A stretch of DNA of 50,403 nucleotides from Shigella phage Sfin-1. Both the position numbers and the translations under genes were made by a program. Each line of letters starts with the position of its first letter. The first letter of the stretch is position 1. Positions 3,117 to 33,323 of the stretch are shown piece after piece. Below the pieces are notes generated by a model. That model was not told the origin of the DNA, searched no databases, and saw only the letters and a list, made by a program, of their open reading frames with translations. The stretch lies in sequence record NC_047998.1; one strand, written 5' to 3'.

Positions 3117-4400
3117 TTAATTTTCATCTTCTAACTTCTCCCCTAATCCCGGTTCCGGTTCGGTTGTTTCTTCAGGTTCGCGAATGTTGATGTTATTACC
3201 ATCCTTGAGTTTGAACTCAGGGGCAATAGATCGCAACGTGTCGCGAGCTTCTTCCAGATCGATGATTTGCTCAGTGATAGCTTTCGTAACCGACTCAACG
3301 TTATTCTTCGTGATCTCTGATTCCTCTTTCTTGCTAGGAACGGATAAAGGCTCGAACTCGATCGACCACTCTTGCTCGTCAACAATGAACGGCAGCAAGA
3401 ACTCAAGAAGAGGCCTGTAATCTTCCTCACGCTTACGATCTACAAGCTTATAGAAAGTCTCAAGTGCTGTATTTTGGCTCGCTGATACGCCGCCTACGTT
3501 CTTATTTTTGATGATAATCTCATGAATCCCGGAAAGGGAAACAATACGATCCATCTTGCTAGATAAGAACTCAGGCACTCCGCTGATATCAGAGTTTAGA
3601 ACATCGTATTCTTCCGTCTCGGCATCGATACCGATCGCACGGCCAACACCTGAATTATCGTCAACCTGAGCCAGTCTCAAGCGCGCTGCATACTGAGCAT
3701 CATCATCATCACACATTTCAGCAAGACCCTTGACTTTCCATACCGCCTGCTGCTTACGCCTCAGGATCTGAGTCGCAAGTGATTCGCAATAGTCGTAGTC
3801 GCAGATTGCATCAATCAGTGACTTATTCAAAACTGAAGCACCCCACCCTTGATTCTGCTTTCGAATCTGAGGTGTTACTCGCTCACCATCAGCAATAAAA
3901 ATTCTTGTGTGGTGGATTAAGTAAGGTTGAAGATTATCACCAGGAGATACCTTGTATATCTCAGGCTCACCATAGCGAGGCGATCGAGCGTTGGTTACTC
4001 TTTTTTCGATTGTAATTGCGAATCTATCATAAACACGCACACCTTCAAGTTTAGCTCCAGGTTTAACAGGGCTGGTTAACATTCTGTTGTCATTAATGAT
4101 CGCTACAATAGCCGCTCCACCGTATAGGCGCGCCCAGCAAAGAACATCAACCAAGCTAGGATCAATTTTGTAACTATCCCACAGAGACTTGAACTCTTTT
4201 TCATCCTTGACTCCTGATATTTTAAAACCAGCCGTAACCATCTCTTCAGGGATCACGTCGACAATTCTTTTCGCTGTCGCGTTATCGTTATAGAATGAGC
4301 CGACGTTATATGACGCATCAACCATAAAAAATGGTTTAGGTGAGCCGTCCGCGCCGCCGTTAAAGATATCGTTATAACCATCATGCTTAACAATTTTCAT
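3117..4400 (-). CDS. Portal protein
   Basis: 427 aa with acidic C-terminus; GGAGGG RBS; directly downstream of the large terminase. Confidence 0.85.
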   Translation of the reverse strand: MKIVKHDGYNDIFNGGADGSPKPFFMVDASYNVGSFYNDNATAKRIVDVIPEEMVTAGFKISGVKDEKEFKSLWDSYKIDPSLVDVLCWARLYGGAAIVAIINDNRMLTSPVKPGAKLEGVRVYDRFAITIEKRVTNARSPRYGEPEIYKVSPGDNLQPYLIHHTRIFIADGERVTPQIRKQNQGWGASVLNKSLIDAICDYDYCESLATQILRRKQQAVWKVKGLAEMCDDDDAQYAARLRLAQVDDNSGVGRAIGIDAETEEYDVLNSDISGVPEFLSSKMDRIVSLSGIHEIIIKNKNVGGVSASQNTALETFYKLVDRKREEDYRPLLEFLLPFIVDEQEWSIEFEPLSVPSKKEESEITKNNVESVTKAITEQIIDLEEARDTLRSIAPEFKLKDGNNINIREPEETTEPEPGLGEKLEDEN

Positions 4401-12075: not shown

Positions 12076-12566
12076 TATTTCACCTCATAGCGTACAAGCG
12101 TTCCGCGCTTAATGCTGATTTCACCTGATACCGTCTTGTTCTTGAAGCCGCCGTGATGCAATAGAAGCGTGATGATATCGTCGTGCACCTCAATAGTTTT
12201 TGGTGTCGCGGTAATCTCAACCCAAGAATCGCTGCTAATCTGGACACCTTTTAGCGTTGCGCTAAGTGGCATATTCTCGATCTGAGTGCACTGTAGCGAT
12301 GGCTTGATTTCTGGCTTTGATTCATGAAAGATGGCCCGACCAACTTTCCAACCAGGCCCGGCACTCTCAACATAATACGGAAGAGACGGGATGTTATCAG
12401 GATTGTGATTGTTATGAAGCTCAATGAGATTACCAACAATCGACGGGTGACACTCATTGAATGACGAATCAGTTGCACGATCTTTGCTGTGGCAGGTTAT
12501 TTTACCGCAGCTAATAGTGTTAAAAACTACAGGGAATTTAATCTCGTTTAATTTCAACATAATCAT
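12075..12566 (-). CDS. Hypothetical protein (163 aa)
   Basis: Long ORF with no recognisable motif. Confidence 0.45.
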   Translation of the reverse strand: MIMLKLNEIKFPVVFNTISCGKITCHSKDRATDSSFNECHPSIVGNLIELHNNHNPDNIPSLPYYVESAGPGWKVGRAIFHESKPEIKPSLQCTQIENMPLSATLKGVQISSDSWVEITATPKTIEVHDDIITLLLHHGGFKNKTVSGEISIKRGTLVRYEVK

Positions 12567-12590
12567 TTCCTCTTGGTGGTCGATGTGGGG

Positions 12591-12634
12591 ATTGTACCAG
12601 TCAGGACGAATCCCCTTTTAACAATTCGTGCTTA
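12591..12634 (-). promoter_or_regulatory. Early promoter cassette (variant dyad TAAGCACGAATTGTTAAAAG plus 22 bp plus TACAAT)
   Basis: Same architecture; GGGGATT/AATCCCC hairpin; dyad contains the TAA stop of the upstream gene. Confidence 0.5.
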
Positions 12635-19132: not shown

Positions 19133-19357
19133 ATGAGCATTAAAGTTGAGAATATCATCAAGCATTTGAACGCAAAAGGCCGTGTAGTTATCAAGATGGA
19201 TAAGTCTTCAGGTTTTATTTCAATGACAGTGACTAAGACGCGTAACGGAAATAGCGTAATCGGAAGAACCCCAGGTTCTCGCTTGATAAATGCAACAGAT
19301 GCTGATGTGCGCGCTACGCTTGAGGCCAACTCAATTTACATTAATTCATGGAGTTAA
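19133..19357 (+). CDS. Hypothetical protein (74 aa)
   Basis: GAAGGA RBS. Confidence 0.45.
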   Translation: MSIKVENIIKHLNAKGRVVIKMDKSSGFISMTVTKTRNGNSVIGRTPGSRLINATDADVRATLEANSIYINSWS

Positions 19358-19570
19358 TTGATGGAACGGGATAATTTCTGGACTCGTTATTTTGCCGCTC
19401 TTGATGCCGGGCTTAGTGCGGAATGGTGTATCAAGGTTGCATATAAAGAAATCACACTTGAGGACGCGCTAGGGAATATGGATATGGACGCAGAAAGCGA
19501 ATATAATCCAGACTTCGAGTTACCTGGCGATGATATTGATGAGGACGACGACGATTATATTCCCTGGTAA
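19358..19570 (+). CDS. Hypothetical acidic protein with SSB-like C-terminal tail (DDDDYIPW)
   Basis: C-terminus resembles the acidic tip (DDDIPF) of the SSB encoded at 32910..33323. Confidence 0.45.
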   Translation: MMERDNFWTRYFAALDAGLSAEWCIKVAYKEITLEDALGNMDMDAESEYNPDFELPGDDIDEDDDDYIPW

Positions 19571-19572
19571 AT

Positions 19573-19624
19573 AGCACGATTTGTTAATATTGCCGTAAGG
19601 TCATTTGATAAAGTGACCTTATTC
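19573..19624 (+). promoter_or_regulatory. Early promoter cassette (TAGCACGATTTGTTAATAT plus TGaTAAAGT)
   Basis: GGTCA...TGACC hairpin. Confidence 0.45.
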
Positions 19625-19650: not shown

Positions 19651-20067
19651 ATGAAATCAATCAAACTGAAATGTACTTACGCCGATAAAATCACAGGATT
19701 TGAAGTTAACAACCTATACAAAGGTCGAGAGCGTTTCGATGGCACTCGCGAAGTAAAATTAAAATGCGGGAAGTATTTAAAACTTGAAAAGCATGATGAA
19801 TTACAGATTCACGGATCTGATGAAATCTTCTTCGCGAAGTTCACTGAGTTGAAAACAAAGACGCTCAAGTGCACCGGGCTTGACCATCGCAACCCAATGA
19901 AAAAATCATTCAAAGTTGGCAAGCGTTACCAGGTTGAAAGCGGTCGCGCTCTCGGTGGCGTAGCTGGTTACATCTTTGATGAAGATGGTTGTCGCTGGAC
20001 CTTATTTCGCGAAGAGGTTGGTTTTAGTATCGCAGACGGCACAACCTTTGAGGCCAAATACTTATAA
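19651..20067 (+). CDS. Hypothetical protein (138 aa) with two internal repeats related to the paralogous small-domain family
   Basis: IKLKCTYADKITGFEVNNLYKG and TLKCTGLDHRNPMKKSFKVGKRYQV. Confidence 0.45.
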   Translation: MKSIKLKCTYADKITGFEVNNLYKGRERFDGTREVKLKCGKYLKLEKHDELQIHGSDEIFFAKFTELKTKTLKCTGLDHRNPMKKSFKVGKRYQVESGRALGGVAGYIFDEDGCRWTLFREEVGFSIADGTTFEAKYL

Positions 20068-20143: not shown

Positions 20144-21712
20144 ATGTTTAATATTAAGCCAAAACTGAATTACCAACAGATTATTGAGATCGCCAATAGT
20201 ACTGGAGTTAATCCGGTGGCGATCGCAATTCGTGAAAACAGCTATGGTGACTCAGTTTCATTTTGGCAAGATCCGATCGATATCAATAGCGGCAACGATA
20301 AGTTCCCTCTGATTTCGTTAGGTGGCGATAACCTGGTATTCGAATATGCAAAAGCAAAGGCCGAGTCTGTACAGTTCCCTGTTTCGTCTGCGTACGCTCA
20401 TTTCATTGGGTGCATCTCAGCCGCGATGCTCGGGAAGTTTTGGGTGCAATATCACGGAGAAGAACAACCAACCGCTCTTTACATGGTAATCAGCCAGCCA
20501 CCGTCAACAGGTAAATCTGCGATTAACTCCGCAGCGATTACGCCTATGCGCGCAGAGATTCAGCGACTGAATGAAGAGCGAAAAAAGGAACGTATCCGTT
20601 TAACCAGTCAGCTACGCCAGGTCGAGAAGGAAATTAAAAACGACCCGAAGGGTAACACGACGGCAGCGCTATACGAGGACAAAGAAAAACTGGAAGAGAA
20701 AATCAAGAAGATGGCTGATATTGTTTTCGCGGTATCAGATCCTACACCAGAAGGTCTAGCGAAAGTAGCTGCTGTTCAAGGTCATTTCTCCGTAATCTCT
20801 GATGAGGCGACAGCAATCAATACATTGCTCGGCCTGACTTATGGTGGTTCAGACAAGAAATCAAATAGTGAGCTTATCCTTAAGGCGTGGGATAAAAACC
20901 ATATGGAGGTAGCGCGTTCCAACCAGGATAACAACTTGTCCCTTTGCCCGGTCGGTTCCATCTGCGTTATTGCGCAGGATGAAACAATCAAGGGTATCAT
21001 GGACGCAGGCCAACGAGGCATCGGCGTATCTGAGCGCTTCCTTCTTGTTCGTGAGGAACCTCTTTTAGGTACTCGTATCCTTTGCGATGAAAATGGTGAT
21101 GCACTGTATAAGGAAGTCGATCGAGGATTGGTGAGTAAATATTATCGACTCGTGCACAACATTATGAAGGAGGAAAACGTTGTTCTTTCTGTAAGTCGTA
21201 ATGCTATGCGTGAATTAAACCTTGCGCGTCAGGCGATGGAGCCGGATTTCGCCGCAGGTGGGAAATACTCTCACTCAATGCTACGCGGTCATCTCGGAAA
21301 GTTCGATAAGCACGCCTTGCGTATTGCTTCAGTTCTCCACACGATCAAGAATTGGGAGGGTGAATCACCGAACCGTTCCAACCGTGAGATTGACCTTGAA
21401 ACGATGCAGGAAGCAATCATGATCTTCAATGAGCTTTCCAGGACTTATCTGTCGTCTGCCAGCGCTGCCGGGTATGCTGGTGATGAGGCTGAATCTCGTA
21501 AGCTGATTGATGTTATCACTGAGATCGCAAAGAAGAATAAAGGGCGCGCTCCTATTCATAGCATCGTTGCAAAGTGCCGGAACGTTACTCCGTTCAACGG
21601 TCAACAGAAAGTATCTGAGAGAATAGATAGCCTGCTGATCACGCTCGAAGAGATGAACTACACTTGCCGCATTGATGATATTGTTTTCATCAATCCTCGA
21701 CTGATGGGTTAA
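20144..21712 (+). CDS. Large P-loop protein (putative replication-associated ATPase, DUF3987-like)
   Basis: Walker A-like QPPSTGKSA; start at the ATG with AAGGAG RBS; largest early gene. Confidence 0.4.
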   Translation: MFNIKPKLNYQQIIEIANSTGVNPVAIAIRENSYGDSVSFWQDPIDINSGNDKFPLISLGGDNLVFEYAKAKAESVQFPVSSAYAHFIGCISAAMLGKFWVQYHGEEQPTALYMVISQPPSTGKSAINSAAITPMRAEIQRLNEERKKERIRLTSQLRQVEKEIKNDPKGNTTAALYEDKEKLEEKIKKMADIVFAVSDPTPEGLAKVAAVQGHFSVISDEATAINTLLGLTYGGSDKKSNSELILKAWDKNHMEVARSNQDNNLSLCPVGSICVIAQDETIKGIMDAGQRGIGVSERFLLVREEPLLGTRILCDENGDALYKEVDRGLVSKYYRLVHNIMKEENVVLSVSRNAMRELNLARQAMEPDFAAGGKYSHSMLRGHLGKFDKHALRIASVLHTIKNWEGESPNRSNREIDLETMQEAIMIFNELSRTYLSSASAAGYAGDEAESRKLIDVITEIAKKNKGRAPIHSIVAKCRNVTPFNGQQKVSERIDSLLITLEEMNYTCRIDDIVFINPRLMG

Positions 21713-32909: not shown

Positions 32910-33323
32910 TTAGAACGGGATATCATCATCGAAAGTTGATTGAGGATTTGGCTGTGGCTGTGATTGCGTTCGCTGTTGTTGCTGCGGTGATCGTTGTTGA
33001 TTGCTTTGTCCTCGTTGACTAAATACCAACTTCGGGAAGTCAGCGGCCTGCAATGAATTGTAAACCGTTCCATTGTGTTCACGTGATGAGATCTTCAACG
33101 TCTCGCATGATACTGATACGACGCGACCAACCTGGAACGCTTCACGATACCAGTCAGCAAGACCAGGCTTTCCACCGTCGCTAAAAAAGAATGTGTAGTT
33201 GGTGTATTCTCGATCTCCATCTCGAGGCTTGTAGCTCTCTGCCAGTTCGATTATATAAGTATTCCCGCCGTTACGTTCAAGAATCTTAGGTTCTTTTCGG
33301 ATCTCTCCAGTGATAATATGCAT
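32910..33323 (-). CDS. ssb: Single-stranded DNA-binding protein
   Basis: Gln/Pro-rich linker and canonical acidic C-terminal tip DDDIPF; AGGAGAG RBS. Confidence 0.7.
   Translation of the reverse strand: MHIITGEIRKEPKILERNGGNTYIIELAESYKPRDGDREYTNYTFFFSDGGKPGLADWYREAFQVGRVVSVSCETLKISSREHNGTVYNSLQAADFPKLVFSQRGQSNQQRSPQQQQRTQSQPQPNPQSTFDDDIPF

What the first reader, a model, noticed from the sequence alone, without database searches (positions are those of the whole stretch)
19358..19570. Small early protein ending in an SSB-like acidic tail (DDDDYIPW)
The phage SSB ends in the canonical DDDIPF tip used to recruit partner proteins. This unrelated 70-aa early protein ends in DIDEDDDDYIPW, a close mimic. 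It could compete with SSB for host or phage SSB-interacting proteins, a plausible host-takeover or anti-defence mechanism.
Basis: inference. Interest (0 to 1): 0.45.

Follow-up and report, generated by a model that had tools for sequence, protein, structure and literature searches.

The report
Small phage protein with SSB-like tip
A 69-residue acidic protein of this T1-like phage, with uncharacterised relatives across T1-like phages, ends in a conserved hook (…DDDDYIPW) resembling the tip bacterial SSB uses to recruit repair and replication enzymes; it may block or redirect one of those enzymes, but no binding has been shown.

Summary
The window is a T1-like phage (Tunavirus, identical to Shigella phage Sfin-6 over the 1.2 kb compared). 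ORF 19361-19570 (+) encodes a 69-aa protein ending DIDEDDDDYIPW. The phage SSB (32910-33323, -) ends FDDDIPF. No other ORF in the window has such an end, and chance expectation is far below one.

The tail is under selection. Homologues share a three-helix N-terminal domain and an unalignable linker. Of 64 members, 62 carry hydrophobic-Pro-Phe/Trp at or one residue from the C-terminus. Real bacterial SSBs ending DDDIPW exist, so Trp is a natural SSB tip.

The mimicry reading is only partly supported:
- The acidic run is confined to Tunavirus. Most relatives have a four-Cys knuckle, often with Lys-Arg, before the tip.
- Twelve members have one residue after the Phe.
- The tip never converges on DDDIPF, although the phage SSB keeps that sequence exactly.

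The gene is accessory: phages with 99-100% identical helicases differ by a clean indel of this gene alone.

Best guess (about 0.4): a two-part ligand whose tip plugs an SSB-tip pocket on a host, or possibly phage, DNA-metabolism protein. No binding evidence exists. The family is undescribed in the literature searched.

The parts
19361..19570 (+). CDS of the 69-aa acidic protein (21 Asp/Glu, 4 Lys/Arg, pI about 4), including the TAA stop; PHROG 9085, function unknown
19350..19353 (+). GGAG ribosome-binding site 7 nt before ATG 19361. The stop of the upstream gene (TAA 19355-19357) lies three bases before the start, which suggests translational coupling
   Evidence: read directly
19361..19498 (+). 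N-terminal domain, residues 1-46: three predicted short helices plus the conserved ALGxMDMDxES motif. This is the most conserved part of the family and is also found, without the tip, in Ackermannviridae proteins of 160-185 aa
19499..19555 (+). Linker, residues 47-65: low model confidence, no predicted secondary structure, variable in sequence. It includes the acidic run DDIDEDDDD (19529-19555). Most other Drexlerviridae have a CxCx5CxxC knuckle here instead
19556..19567 (+). C-terminal tip Tyr-Ile-Pro-Trp, residues 66-69: invariant in Tunavirus homologues, with only synonymous codon changes
32910..33323 (-). Phage SSB (PHROG 44). Its last seven residues, FDDDIPF, are encoded at 32913-32933 and are invariant across the Drexlerviridae SSBs sampled
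19133..19357 (+). Upstream syntenic gene, 74 aa, PHROG 4344, function unknown
19651..20067 (+). Downstream syntenic gene, 138 aa, PHROG 2684, function unknown
20144..21712 (+). DUF3987 helicase (PHROG 2373). The family is described as SF6, distantly MCM-related, and as the probable replicative helicase of such phages. It anchors the conserved gene neighbourhood
   Evidence: PMC4889955

Best explanation
Architecture (shown or predicted). The gene encodes an accessory small acidic protein in three parts: a folded three-helix head of about 45 residues, a flexible linker, and a short docking motif at the extreme C-terminus. The motif is a hydrophobic residue, then Pro, then Phe or Trp with a free carboxylate.

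Mechanism (inferred). In this phage the linker is an acidic run, so the end (DDDD-Y-I-P-W) is of the SSB C-terminal-tip type. Most likely the tip inserts into the pocket that SSB-interacting proteins use to hold SSB's DDDIPF. That pocket is hydrophobic, with a basic residue for the terminal carboxylate. The conserved head then supplies a second contact. The protein would act as a selective blocker or re-router of one or a few such enzymes, not as a general competitor for all SSB partners. Possible targets are host enzymes such as exonuclease I, RecJ, RecQ, RecG or PriA, a phage recombination or replication protein, or a defence protein that uses the same pocket. The likely benefit is protection of phage single-stranded intermediates or relief from a host function, under some conditions only.

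Shown: the sequence, its conservation pattern, the synteny and the dispensability of the gene. Predicted: the fold. Inferred: every binding step and the identity of the partner.
For: - The tail is real and far beyond chance.
- YIPW is invariant while the linker varies in Tunavirus.
- 19 full-length short-form representatives clustered at 50% identity, drawn from 1.8 billion proteins, all end in Phe or Trp, and 17 end in Pro-Phe/Trp, despite unalignable linkers.
- In 64 family members from IMG/VR, 50 end xP[FW] and 12 more have it one residue from the end.
- The conserved positions are those PMC3159472 reports for SSB-Ct: loss of the penultimate Pro impairs partner binding, changing the terminal Phe is lethal, and its free carboxylate is recognised by the pocket.
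- Ten OB-fold SSBs from diverse bacteria end DDDIPW, so Trp is a natural SSB tip residue.
- The same tip also ends non-SSB proteins, a Shedu nuclease and XPB-like helicases, so it is a portable module.
- The phage has no DNA polymerase among the annotated genes of its close relative LeonhardEuler. It carries an SSB with the same FDDDIPF tip as E. coli SSB, an Erf-like annealing protein and an exonuclease VIII homologue. SSB-tip traffic is therefore central to its biology.
- The head domain also occurs in Ackermannviridae, which gave no helicase match at E <= 1e-20. This points to a partner that is not that helicase.
- The gene is cleanly absent from phages whose helicases are 99-100% identical. 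This fits a conditional host-interaction role better than a core replisome part.
Against: - No binding data of any kind exist.
- The acidic run is not family-wide. 49 of 64 relatives have a Cys-rich knuckle, and the largest group has Lys-Arg just before C-F-P-F. That should repel the 'basic ridge' of known SSB-tip sites (PMC3159472).
- 12 of 64 carry one extra residue after Phe (IPFW, LPFI, VPFL). This is at odds with the reported recognition of the terminal Phe carboxylate.
- In this protein Tyr replaces the Asp next to Ile.
- The tip has stayed different from DDDIPF even though the phage's own SSB keeps it exactly.
- A single tail would compete poorly with the many tetravalent SSB tails unless the head adds affinity. 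That is assumed, not shown.
Confidence: 0.4

Rival explanations
1. Module-internal docking motif. The tip binds a phage-encoded partner of the same operon, either the DUF3987 replicative helicase or the 138-aa PHROG 2684 protein. It would help assemble or regulate the phage replisome, possibly at the site the phage SSB tail also uses. This follows the T7 example, where helicase gp4 and SSB gp2.5 both carry acidic tails ending in Phe.
For: - Gene order is fixed across divergent Drexlerviridae: 74-aa gene, this gene, 138-aa gene, DUF3987 helicase.
- The start is tightly coupled to the upstream gene.
- In a T7 precedent, a peptide DTDF mimicking the gp4 tail was used to place the gp2.5 tail on the polymerase (PMC12339929).
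Against: - Contigs with 99-100% identical helicases and collinear flanks differ by a clean indel of about 285 bp that removes only this gene.
- The family is detectable in about half of helicase-bearing phage records: 454 against 899. This is a lower bound, because tblastn is weak for short proteins.
- The head domain occurs in Ackermannviridae, which gave no helicase match at E <= 1e-20.
Confidence: 0.2
2. The likeness to SSB is superficial. The ancestral functional unit is a zinc knuckle followed by hydrophobic-Pro-Phe, which binds some other host target, for example another hydrophobic groove such as the sliding clamp's. In Tunavirus the knuckle was merely replaced by an acidic spacer.
For: - The Cys-rich form is the majority, and basic residues precede the tip in the largest group.
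- One extra C-terminal residue is tolerated in 12 of 64 members.
- The tip does not co-vary with, or converge on, the SSB tip.
Against: - The tip does not fit the clamp-binding consensus as I recall it (QL[SD]LF or QLxLxL): there is no Gln and no Leu at position 2 (sequence comparison only).
- Ile/Leu-Pro-Phe is identical to the SSB tip in many members (CIPF, EIPF, GIPF, LPF).
- In 50 of 64 members the motif is exactly C-terminal, as in SSB.
Confidence: 0.25
3. A DNA-mimic type inhibitor. The overall negative charge imitates nucleic acid to block a DNA-binding host enzyme, such as a restriction enzyme or RecBCD, and the tip is secondary.
For: The protein has 21 acidic and 4 basic residues in 69, with a pI near 4. 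It is small and lies in a block of small genes of unknown function. Many phage DNA mimics are small and acidic (general knowledge).
Against: - This does not explain why the most conserved tail feature is hydrophobic-Pro-aromatic, nor why most relatives swap the acidic run for a Cys knuckle with basic residues.
- The acidic segment has low model confidence and no secondary structure, so it is not a rigid charge array.
- There is no fold match to known mimics.
Confidence: 0.05

Closest known systems
[quoted passage not shown]
   Same: The motif sits at the extreme C-terminus after a flexible, acidic segment. Ile-Pro-aromatic comes last, and the Pro and the terminal aromatic are conserved. Trp occurs naturally at this position in real SSBs. 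The phage's own SSB carries the canonical form.
   Different: It is attached to a three-helix domain, not an OB fold, so the protein is not an SSB. Tyr replaces the Asp next to Ile. The acidic run is missing from most family members. Some members have one residue after Phe. Binding to SSB partners is untested.
T7 gp4 helicase-primase and gp2.5 SSB: two proteins of one phage with acidic tails ending in Phe
   Same: A non-SSB phage protein bears a tail resembling that of the phage SSB. In the T7 modelling work, a DTDF peptide mimicking the gp4 tail was used to place the gp2.5 tail on the polymerase (PMC12339929). That both tails bind one polymerase site is my recollection of the T7 literature.
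   Different: In T7 the tail belongs to an essential replisome enzyme, and the partner is the phage's own polymerase. Here the carrier is a tiny dispensable protein, the phage has no annotated polymerase, and the tip is of the host IPF type.
Phage SSB-like protein Bas52_0087 with an FDDDIPF tip, trigger of the DRT10 defence system (bioRxiv 10.64898/2026.04.29.721553)
   Same: It is a phage-encoded protein carrying an E. coli-type SSB tip. The authors raise the possibility that it interferes with the host exonuclease SbcB (ExoI).
   Different: Bas52_0087 has a predicted SSB-like architecture with two OB folds. The protein here has none and is about a fifth of the size implied by that protein's reported residue numbers.
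Small acidic phage DNA mimics (Ocr, T7 gp5.9, Ugi and similar)
   Same: They are small, strongly acidic phage proteins.
   Different: Those rely on a folded array of carboxylates. Here the acidic part has no predicted structure and is not conserved across the family, while a hydrophobic C-terminal tip is.

Membership tests
SSB-Ct-type docking tip | Aromatic residue at the extreme C-terminus with a free alpha-carboxylate (PMC3159472) | tested here: met
   The window protein ends in Trp-COOH. 50 of 64 family members end P[FW], but 12 have one extra residue. Real SSBs ending in Trp exist.
SSB-Ct-type docking tip | Penultimate Pro (the ssb113 Pro-to-Ser change impairs partner binding; PMC3159472) | tested here: met
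   Pro68 is invariant in Tunavirus. Pro precedes the Phe/Trp in 62 of 64 members.
SSB-Ct-type docking tip | Ile or Leu before the Pro | tested here: met
   Ile67 here. Relatives have I, L, F, V or M, and Glu once.
SSB-Ct-type docking tip | Three acidic residues directly before Ile-Pro-Phe, bound by a basic ridge (PMC3159472) | tested here: inconclusive
   The window protein has DDDD, but separated from Ile by Tyr. Acidity is confined to the Tunavirus group, and the largest group has Lys-Arg-Cys before the tip.
SSB-Ct-type docking tip | Binds the SSB-tip pocket of SSB-interacting proteins | not testable with these tools
   No complex prediction or binding assay was available.
SSB protein family | OB-fold single-stranded-DNA-binding domain | tested here: not met
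   There is no Pfam or NCBIfam SSB hit. The predicted fold is three helices. The protein is not an SSB.
Sliding-clamp-binding motif | Consensus QL[SD]LF or QLxLxL (from memory) | tested here: not met
   The tips DDYIPW, ECIPF and RCFPF lack the Gln and the Leu at position 2. This is a sequence comparison only.
DNA-mimic inhibitors | Folded scaffold displaying a regular array of carboxylates | tested here: not met
   The acidic segment has low model confidence and no secondary structure. It is replaced by a Cys knuckle in most relatives. No fold match was found.
PHROG 9085 / 9323 / 4823 (unnamed phage family) | Profile match to the N-terminal domain | tested here: met
   E = 8.5e-46 over the full length of PHROG 9085, with N-domain matches to PHROGs 9323 and 4823. 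All three have unknown function.

The most novel reading that the evidence does not exclude
T1-like phages carry a widespread, previously unnoticed family of tiny effector proteins that graft an SSB-type C-terminal hook onto a separate targeting domain. The hook would plug the SSB-docking pocket of a chosen host genome-maintenance or defence protein. That would be a new class of host-takeover or counter-defence factor acting on the SSB interaction hub. The same hook on Shedu nucleases and XPB-like helicases hints that SSB-tip grafting may be a general strategy on both sides of the phage-host conflict.
Probability: 0.3. Interest if true: 0.75.

Novelty: new variant of a known kind. Interest (0 to 1): 0.5.

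Why it matters
SSB's C-terminal tip organises replication, recombination and repair in bacteria, and it is being pursued as an antibiotic target. A natural, phage-evolved protein ligand for SSB-tip pockets would show which host partner is worth disabling during infection. It would offer a template for inhibitors. It would also give a function to a gene family present in hundreds of Drexlerviridae genomes, including therapeutic candidates against Klebsiella, E. coli and Shigella. The work is directly testable, because near-isogenic natural phages with and without the gene exist and the motif is only three or four residues long. If the tip instead binds something unrelated, the family still defines a new conserved C-terminal docking motif with two interchangeable presentations: an acidic spacer or a Cys knuckle.

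Tried and rejected
- Family and structure searches gave nothing useful. This covers Pfam, NCBIfam and a PDB sequence profile for the protein and its two small neighbours. It also covers Foldseek against PDB and against BFVD, where only uncharacterised members of the same family matched, and Pfam on longer relatives.
- A second AlphaFold2 run with a more diverse alignment did not improve the model.
- Gene-fusion idea: I asked whether the long relatives (P0078, P0082) are fusions of the upstream 74-aa protein with this domain. They are not; no similarity was found.
- Co-variation idea: I asked whether the small protein's tip tracks the phage SSB's tip. It does not. The SSB tip is invariant FDDDIPF.
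- 'Core replisome adaptor' was downgraded after finding a clean presence/absence polymorphism next to identical helicases.
- The search for related loci with the diverse family alignment failed because no stretch was conserved enough. I used the helicase as an anchor instead.
- Literature: nine searches found no description of this family or of a non-SSB phage protein acting as an SSB-tip decoy. The searches included locus tags, DDDIPF plus phage, and SSB tail plus mimic. The library lacks many subscription papers, so absence is not proof.
- Chance origin of the tail was rejected.

Full report
**What the window is.** A 1.2-kb stretch around the finding is 100% identical to Shigella phage Sfin-6 and 92-99% identical to many Tunavirus (T1-like, Drexlerviridae) genomes. 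The window length matches a whole genome of this kind. The annotation of the close relative LeonhardEuler lists no DNA polymerase gene. PHROG matches in the window identify a DnaG-type primase, two helicases, an exonuclease VIII homologue, an Erf-like annealing protein and an SSB.

**The observation.**
- The ORF is present as described. The likely start is ATG 19361, preceded by GGAG at 19350-19353. The TAA stop of the upstream gene (19355-19357) lies three bases before it. The product is 69 aa and ends PGDDIDEDDDDYIPW.
- The phage SSB (32910-33323, minus strand; PHROG 44) ends STFDDDIPF.
- Among 370 six-frame ORFs of at least 50 aa, only these two combine an acidic run with a hydrophobic-Pro-aromatic end. 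The composition-based expectation is between 1e-5 and 6e-3 per genome.
- The protein has 21 acidic and 4 basic residues. It has no Pfam or NCBIfam match.
- AlphaFold2 predicts three short helices (residues 6-15, 20-27, 33-39) followed by a low-confidence tail without secondary structure from about residue 46. It is therefore not an SSB.

**Is the tail functional?**
- Close homologues down to 61% identity keep residues 1-46 and the final YIPW almost unchanged, while positions 53-65 vary freely but stay acidic. At the codon level, YIPW shows only synonymous changes in 13 distinct Tunavirus genes.
- A profile search of 1.8 billion representative proteins found 27 relatives. The 19 full-length short forms share the N-terminal domain (consensus ...AGLNxEWxxKVA...TLxxALGDMDMDxES) and have unalignable middles. 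All end in Phe or Trp, and 17 end in Pro-Phe/Trp: IPF, IPW, LPF, FPF, EPF.
- I used the neighbouring helicase as an anchor to fetch 80 loci from IMG/VR. These yielded 58 profile hits plus six more divergent members in a group of helicase loci from 44-47 kb contigs. I read these as Rtp-like phages, which I did not check.
- Of these 64, 50 end xP[FW], 12 have that motif followed by one residue (IPFW, LPFI, VPFL), one reads FQF and one is a frameshifted copy.
- The tip is thus the second conserved element of the family, after the head.

**How SSB-like is it?**
- PMC3159472 describes the SSB-Ct. Its sequence is DDDIPF. The Pro-to-Ser change (ssb113) impairs partner binding, and Phe-to-Cys is lethal. 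Partner sites have a hydrophobic pocket and a basic residue for the side chain and alpha-carboxylate of the terminal Phe, plus a basic ridge thought to bind the Asp residues.
- The family conserves the Pro, the terminal aromatic and, mostly, the exact C-terminal position.
- I scanned 185,579 species genomes for DDDIPW followed by a stop codon and obtained 65 matches. At least 10 are OB-fold SSBs from diverse bacteria, including Legionella, Hahella, Novosphingobium, Nitrosomonadaceae and Clostridia. Terminal Trp is therefore a natural SSB tip.

Four observations cut the other way:
- Only the Tunavirus group has the acidic run. 49 of 64 relatives have a CxCx5CxxC knuckle directly before the tip, and the largest group reads ...DPSCKRCFPF, with basic residues next to the tip.
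- Twelve members bury the Phe carboxylate under one more residue.
- In this protein Tyr occupies the position of the last Asp.
- The phage SSB ends FDDDIPF in all 24 Drexlerviridae SSB loci that read through to a normal end. This holds whether the small protein ends YIPW, CFPF or CMPF. The small protein's tip is kept different from the SSB tip and is not being pulled towards it.

**Context and dispensability.**
- Across divergent Drexlerviridae the order is fixed: a gene of about 74 aa (PHROG 4344), this gene, sometimes an insert, a gene of about 138 aa (PHROG 2684), then the DUF3987 helicase. Kazlauskas et al. describe DUF3987 as an SF6, MCM-related probable replicative helicase (PMC4889955).
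- That order suggested a replisome role. However, in one subgroup of loci (I take them to be Klebsiella Webervirus-type phages, which I did not check), contigs with 99-100% identical helicases either have or lack the gene.
- Aligning one of each shows collinear flanks and a clean gap of about 285 bp that corresponds to this gene alone.
- In isolate genomes the helicase is found in 899 records, and the family is detectable by tblastn in 454. This is a lower bound for so short a protein.
- The head domain also occurs without the tip in proteins of 160-185 aa of Ackermannviridae, about 1 kb from their family-B polymerase gene. Those phages gave no helicase match at E <= 1e-20.
- The gene is therefore accessory, and the head's partner is unlikely to be the DUF3987 helicase.

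**Mechanism.** I commit, at about 0.4, to the following. The protein is a two-part ligand. Its tip docks in an SSB-tip-type pocket and its head adds a second contact that gives selectivity. The result is blocking or re-routing of one or a few SSB-interacting proteins, not global competition with SSB. Competition by a single tail against thousands of tetravalent SSB tails would be ineffective without the head's contribution; this is an inference. Candidate targets are host single-strand nucleases and helicases that threaten the 3' tails made by the phage's exonuclease VIII and Erf system, or a defence protein that uses the same pocket. The rivals are:
- a phage-internal docking motif in the T7 gp4/gp2.5 style (0.2);
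- a superficial likeness, with a different target for a knuckle-plus-hydrophobic-Pro-Phe unit (0.25);
- a DNA mimic (0.05).

**Comparison with what is known.**
- The family is unnamed (PHROGs 9085, 9323 and 4823, all 'unknown function'). Every record I saw annotates it as hypothetical.
- Nine literature searches found nothing on it, nor on a non-SSB phage protein used as an SSB-tip decoy.
- The nearest precedents are the SSB-Ct itself and the T7 pair gp4 and gp2.5, whose tails both end in Phe.
- A third precedent is the recently reported OB-fold SSB-like protein Bas52_0087. It carries an FDDDIPF tip and is linked to SbcB and DRT10 activation.

**Verdict.** Novelty: a new variant of a known kind of motif, on an uncharacterised carrier. 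Interest: 0.5.

Noticed in passing
L093 (Stenotrophomonas MAG, match at 3610-3630 +); L103, L111, L143, L148, L118, L121, L092 and L097 (cyanobacteria): The SSB-type tip DDDIPW also ends proteins that are not SSBs. One is a Shedu SduA-type nuclease (Pfam SduA_C, E = 1.3e-15). Another is an XPB/RAD25-like helicase, confirmed by Pfam for L103; seven other cyanobacterial loci end in the same conserved C-terminal sequence. Several phage-like proteins of 170-320 aa without Pfam matches carry the tip as well.
   Followed up: partly
L095, L104, L138, L146, L091, L100, L120, L141, L107, L117: Ten bona fide OB-fold SSBs from diverse bacteria end DDDIPW instead of DDDIPF, so terminal Trp is a natural variant of the SSB tip.
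   Followed up: yes
L025-L058 and others (for example L026 1620-1862); L056 1644-1820; L065 2268-2447: Most Drexlerviridae relatives replace the acidic linker with a four-Cys motif (CxCx5CxxC, or CCxGxGCxxC in the divergent group of 58-61 aa) directly before the hydrophobic-Pro-Phe tip. It is probably a zinc knuckle. Its role is unknown.
   Followed up: partly
L089 1505-1788 versus L087: There is a clean indel of about 285 bp that contains only this gene, between contigs whose helicases are 100% identical. This gives natural near-isogenic phages with and without the gene.
   Followed up: yes
window 19595-19622 (+): A stable 12-bp hairpin lies 25 nt after the stop codon (z = -3.5 against shuffles). 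It has no U-run after it, so it is not a canonical intrinsic terminator. A related phage record annotates terminators somewhere in the 1.2-kb stretch compared.
   Followed up: partly
L090 5989-6546 (Salmonella phage Mansal, Ackermannviridae): A 185-aa homologue of the head domain (PHROG 4823) without the C-terminal tip lies about 1 kb from the family-B DNA polymerase gene. It is present in about 259 records, mostly phages of about 157 kb.
   Followed up: partly
L021 812-1108 (IMG/VR copy of a Tunavirus; protein P0060 of Shigella phage vB_SsoS_008): Here the gene is fused in frame to the upstream 74-aa gene and truncated after ...GNMDMD, so the tail is lost. This is either a natural disruption or a sequencing error.
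   Followed up: no
window 32910-33323 (-): The phage SSB matches NCBI's SSB models only weakly (E = 0.002-0.005), and only over its C-terminal half, including the tail. PHROG 44 matches it well. It is a divergent SSB that carries the same FDDDIPF tip as E. coli SSB.
   Followed up: partly
window 12451-12621 (+): A 56-codon ORF ends ...SGRIPF. Most of it overlaps a 163-aa ORF on the opposite strand, and it lacks an acidic run, so it is probably not a gene.
   Followed up: no
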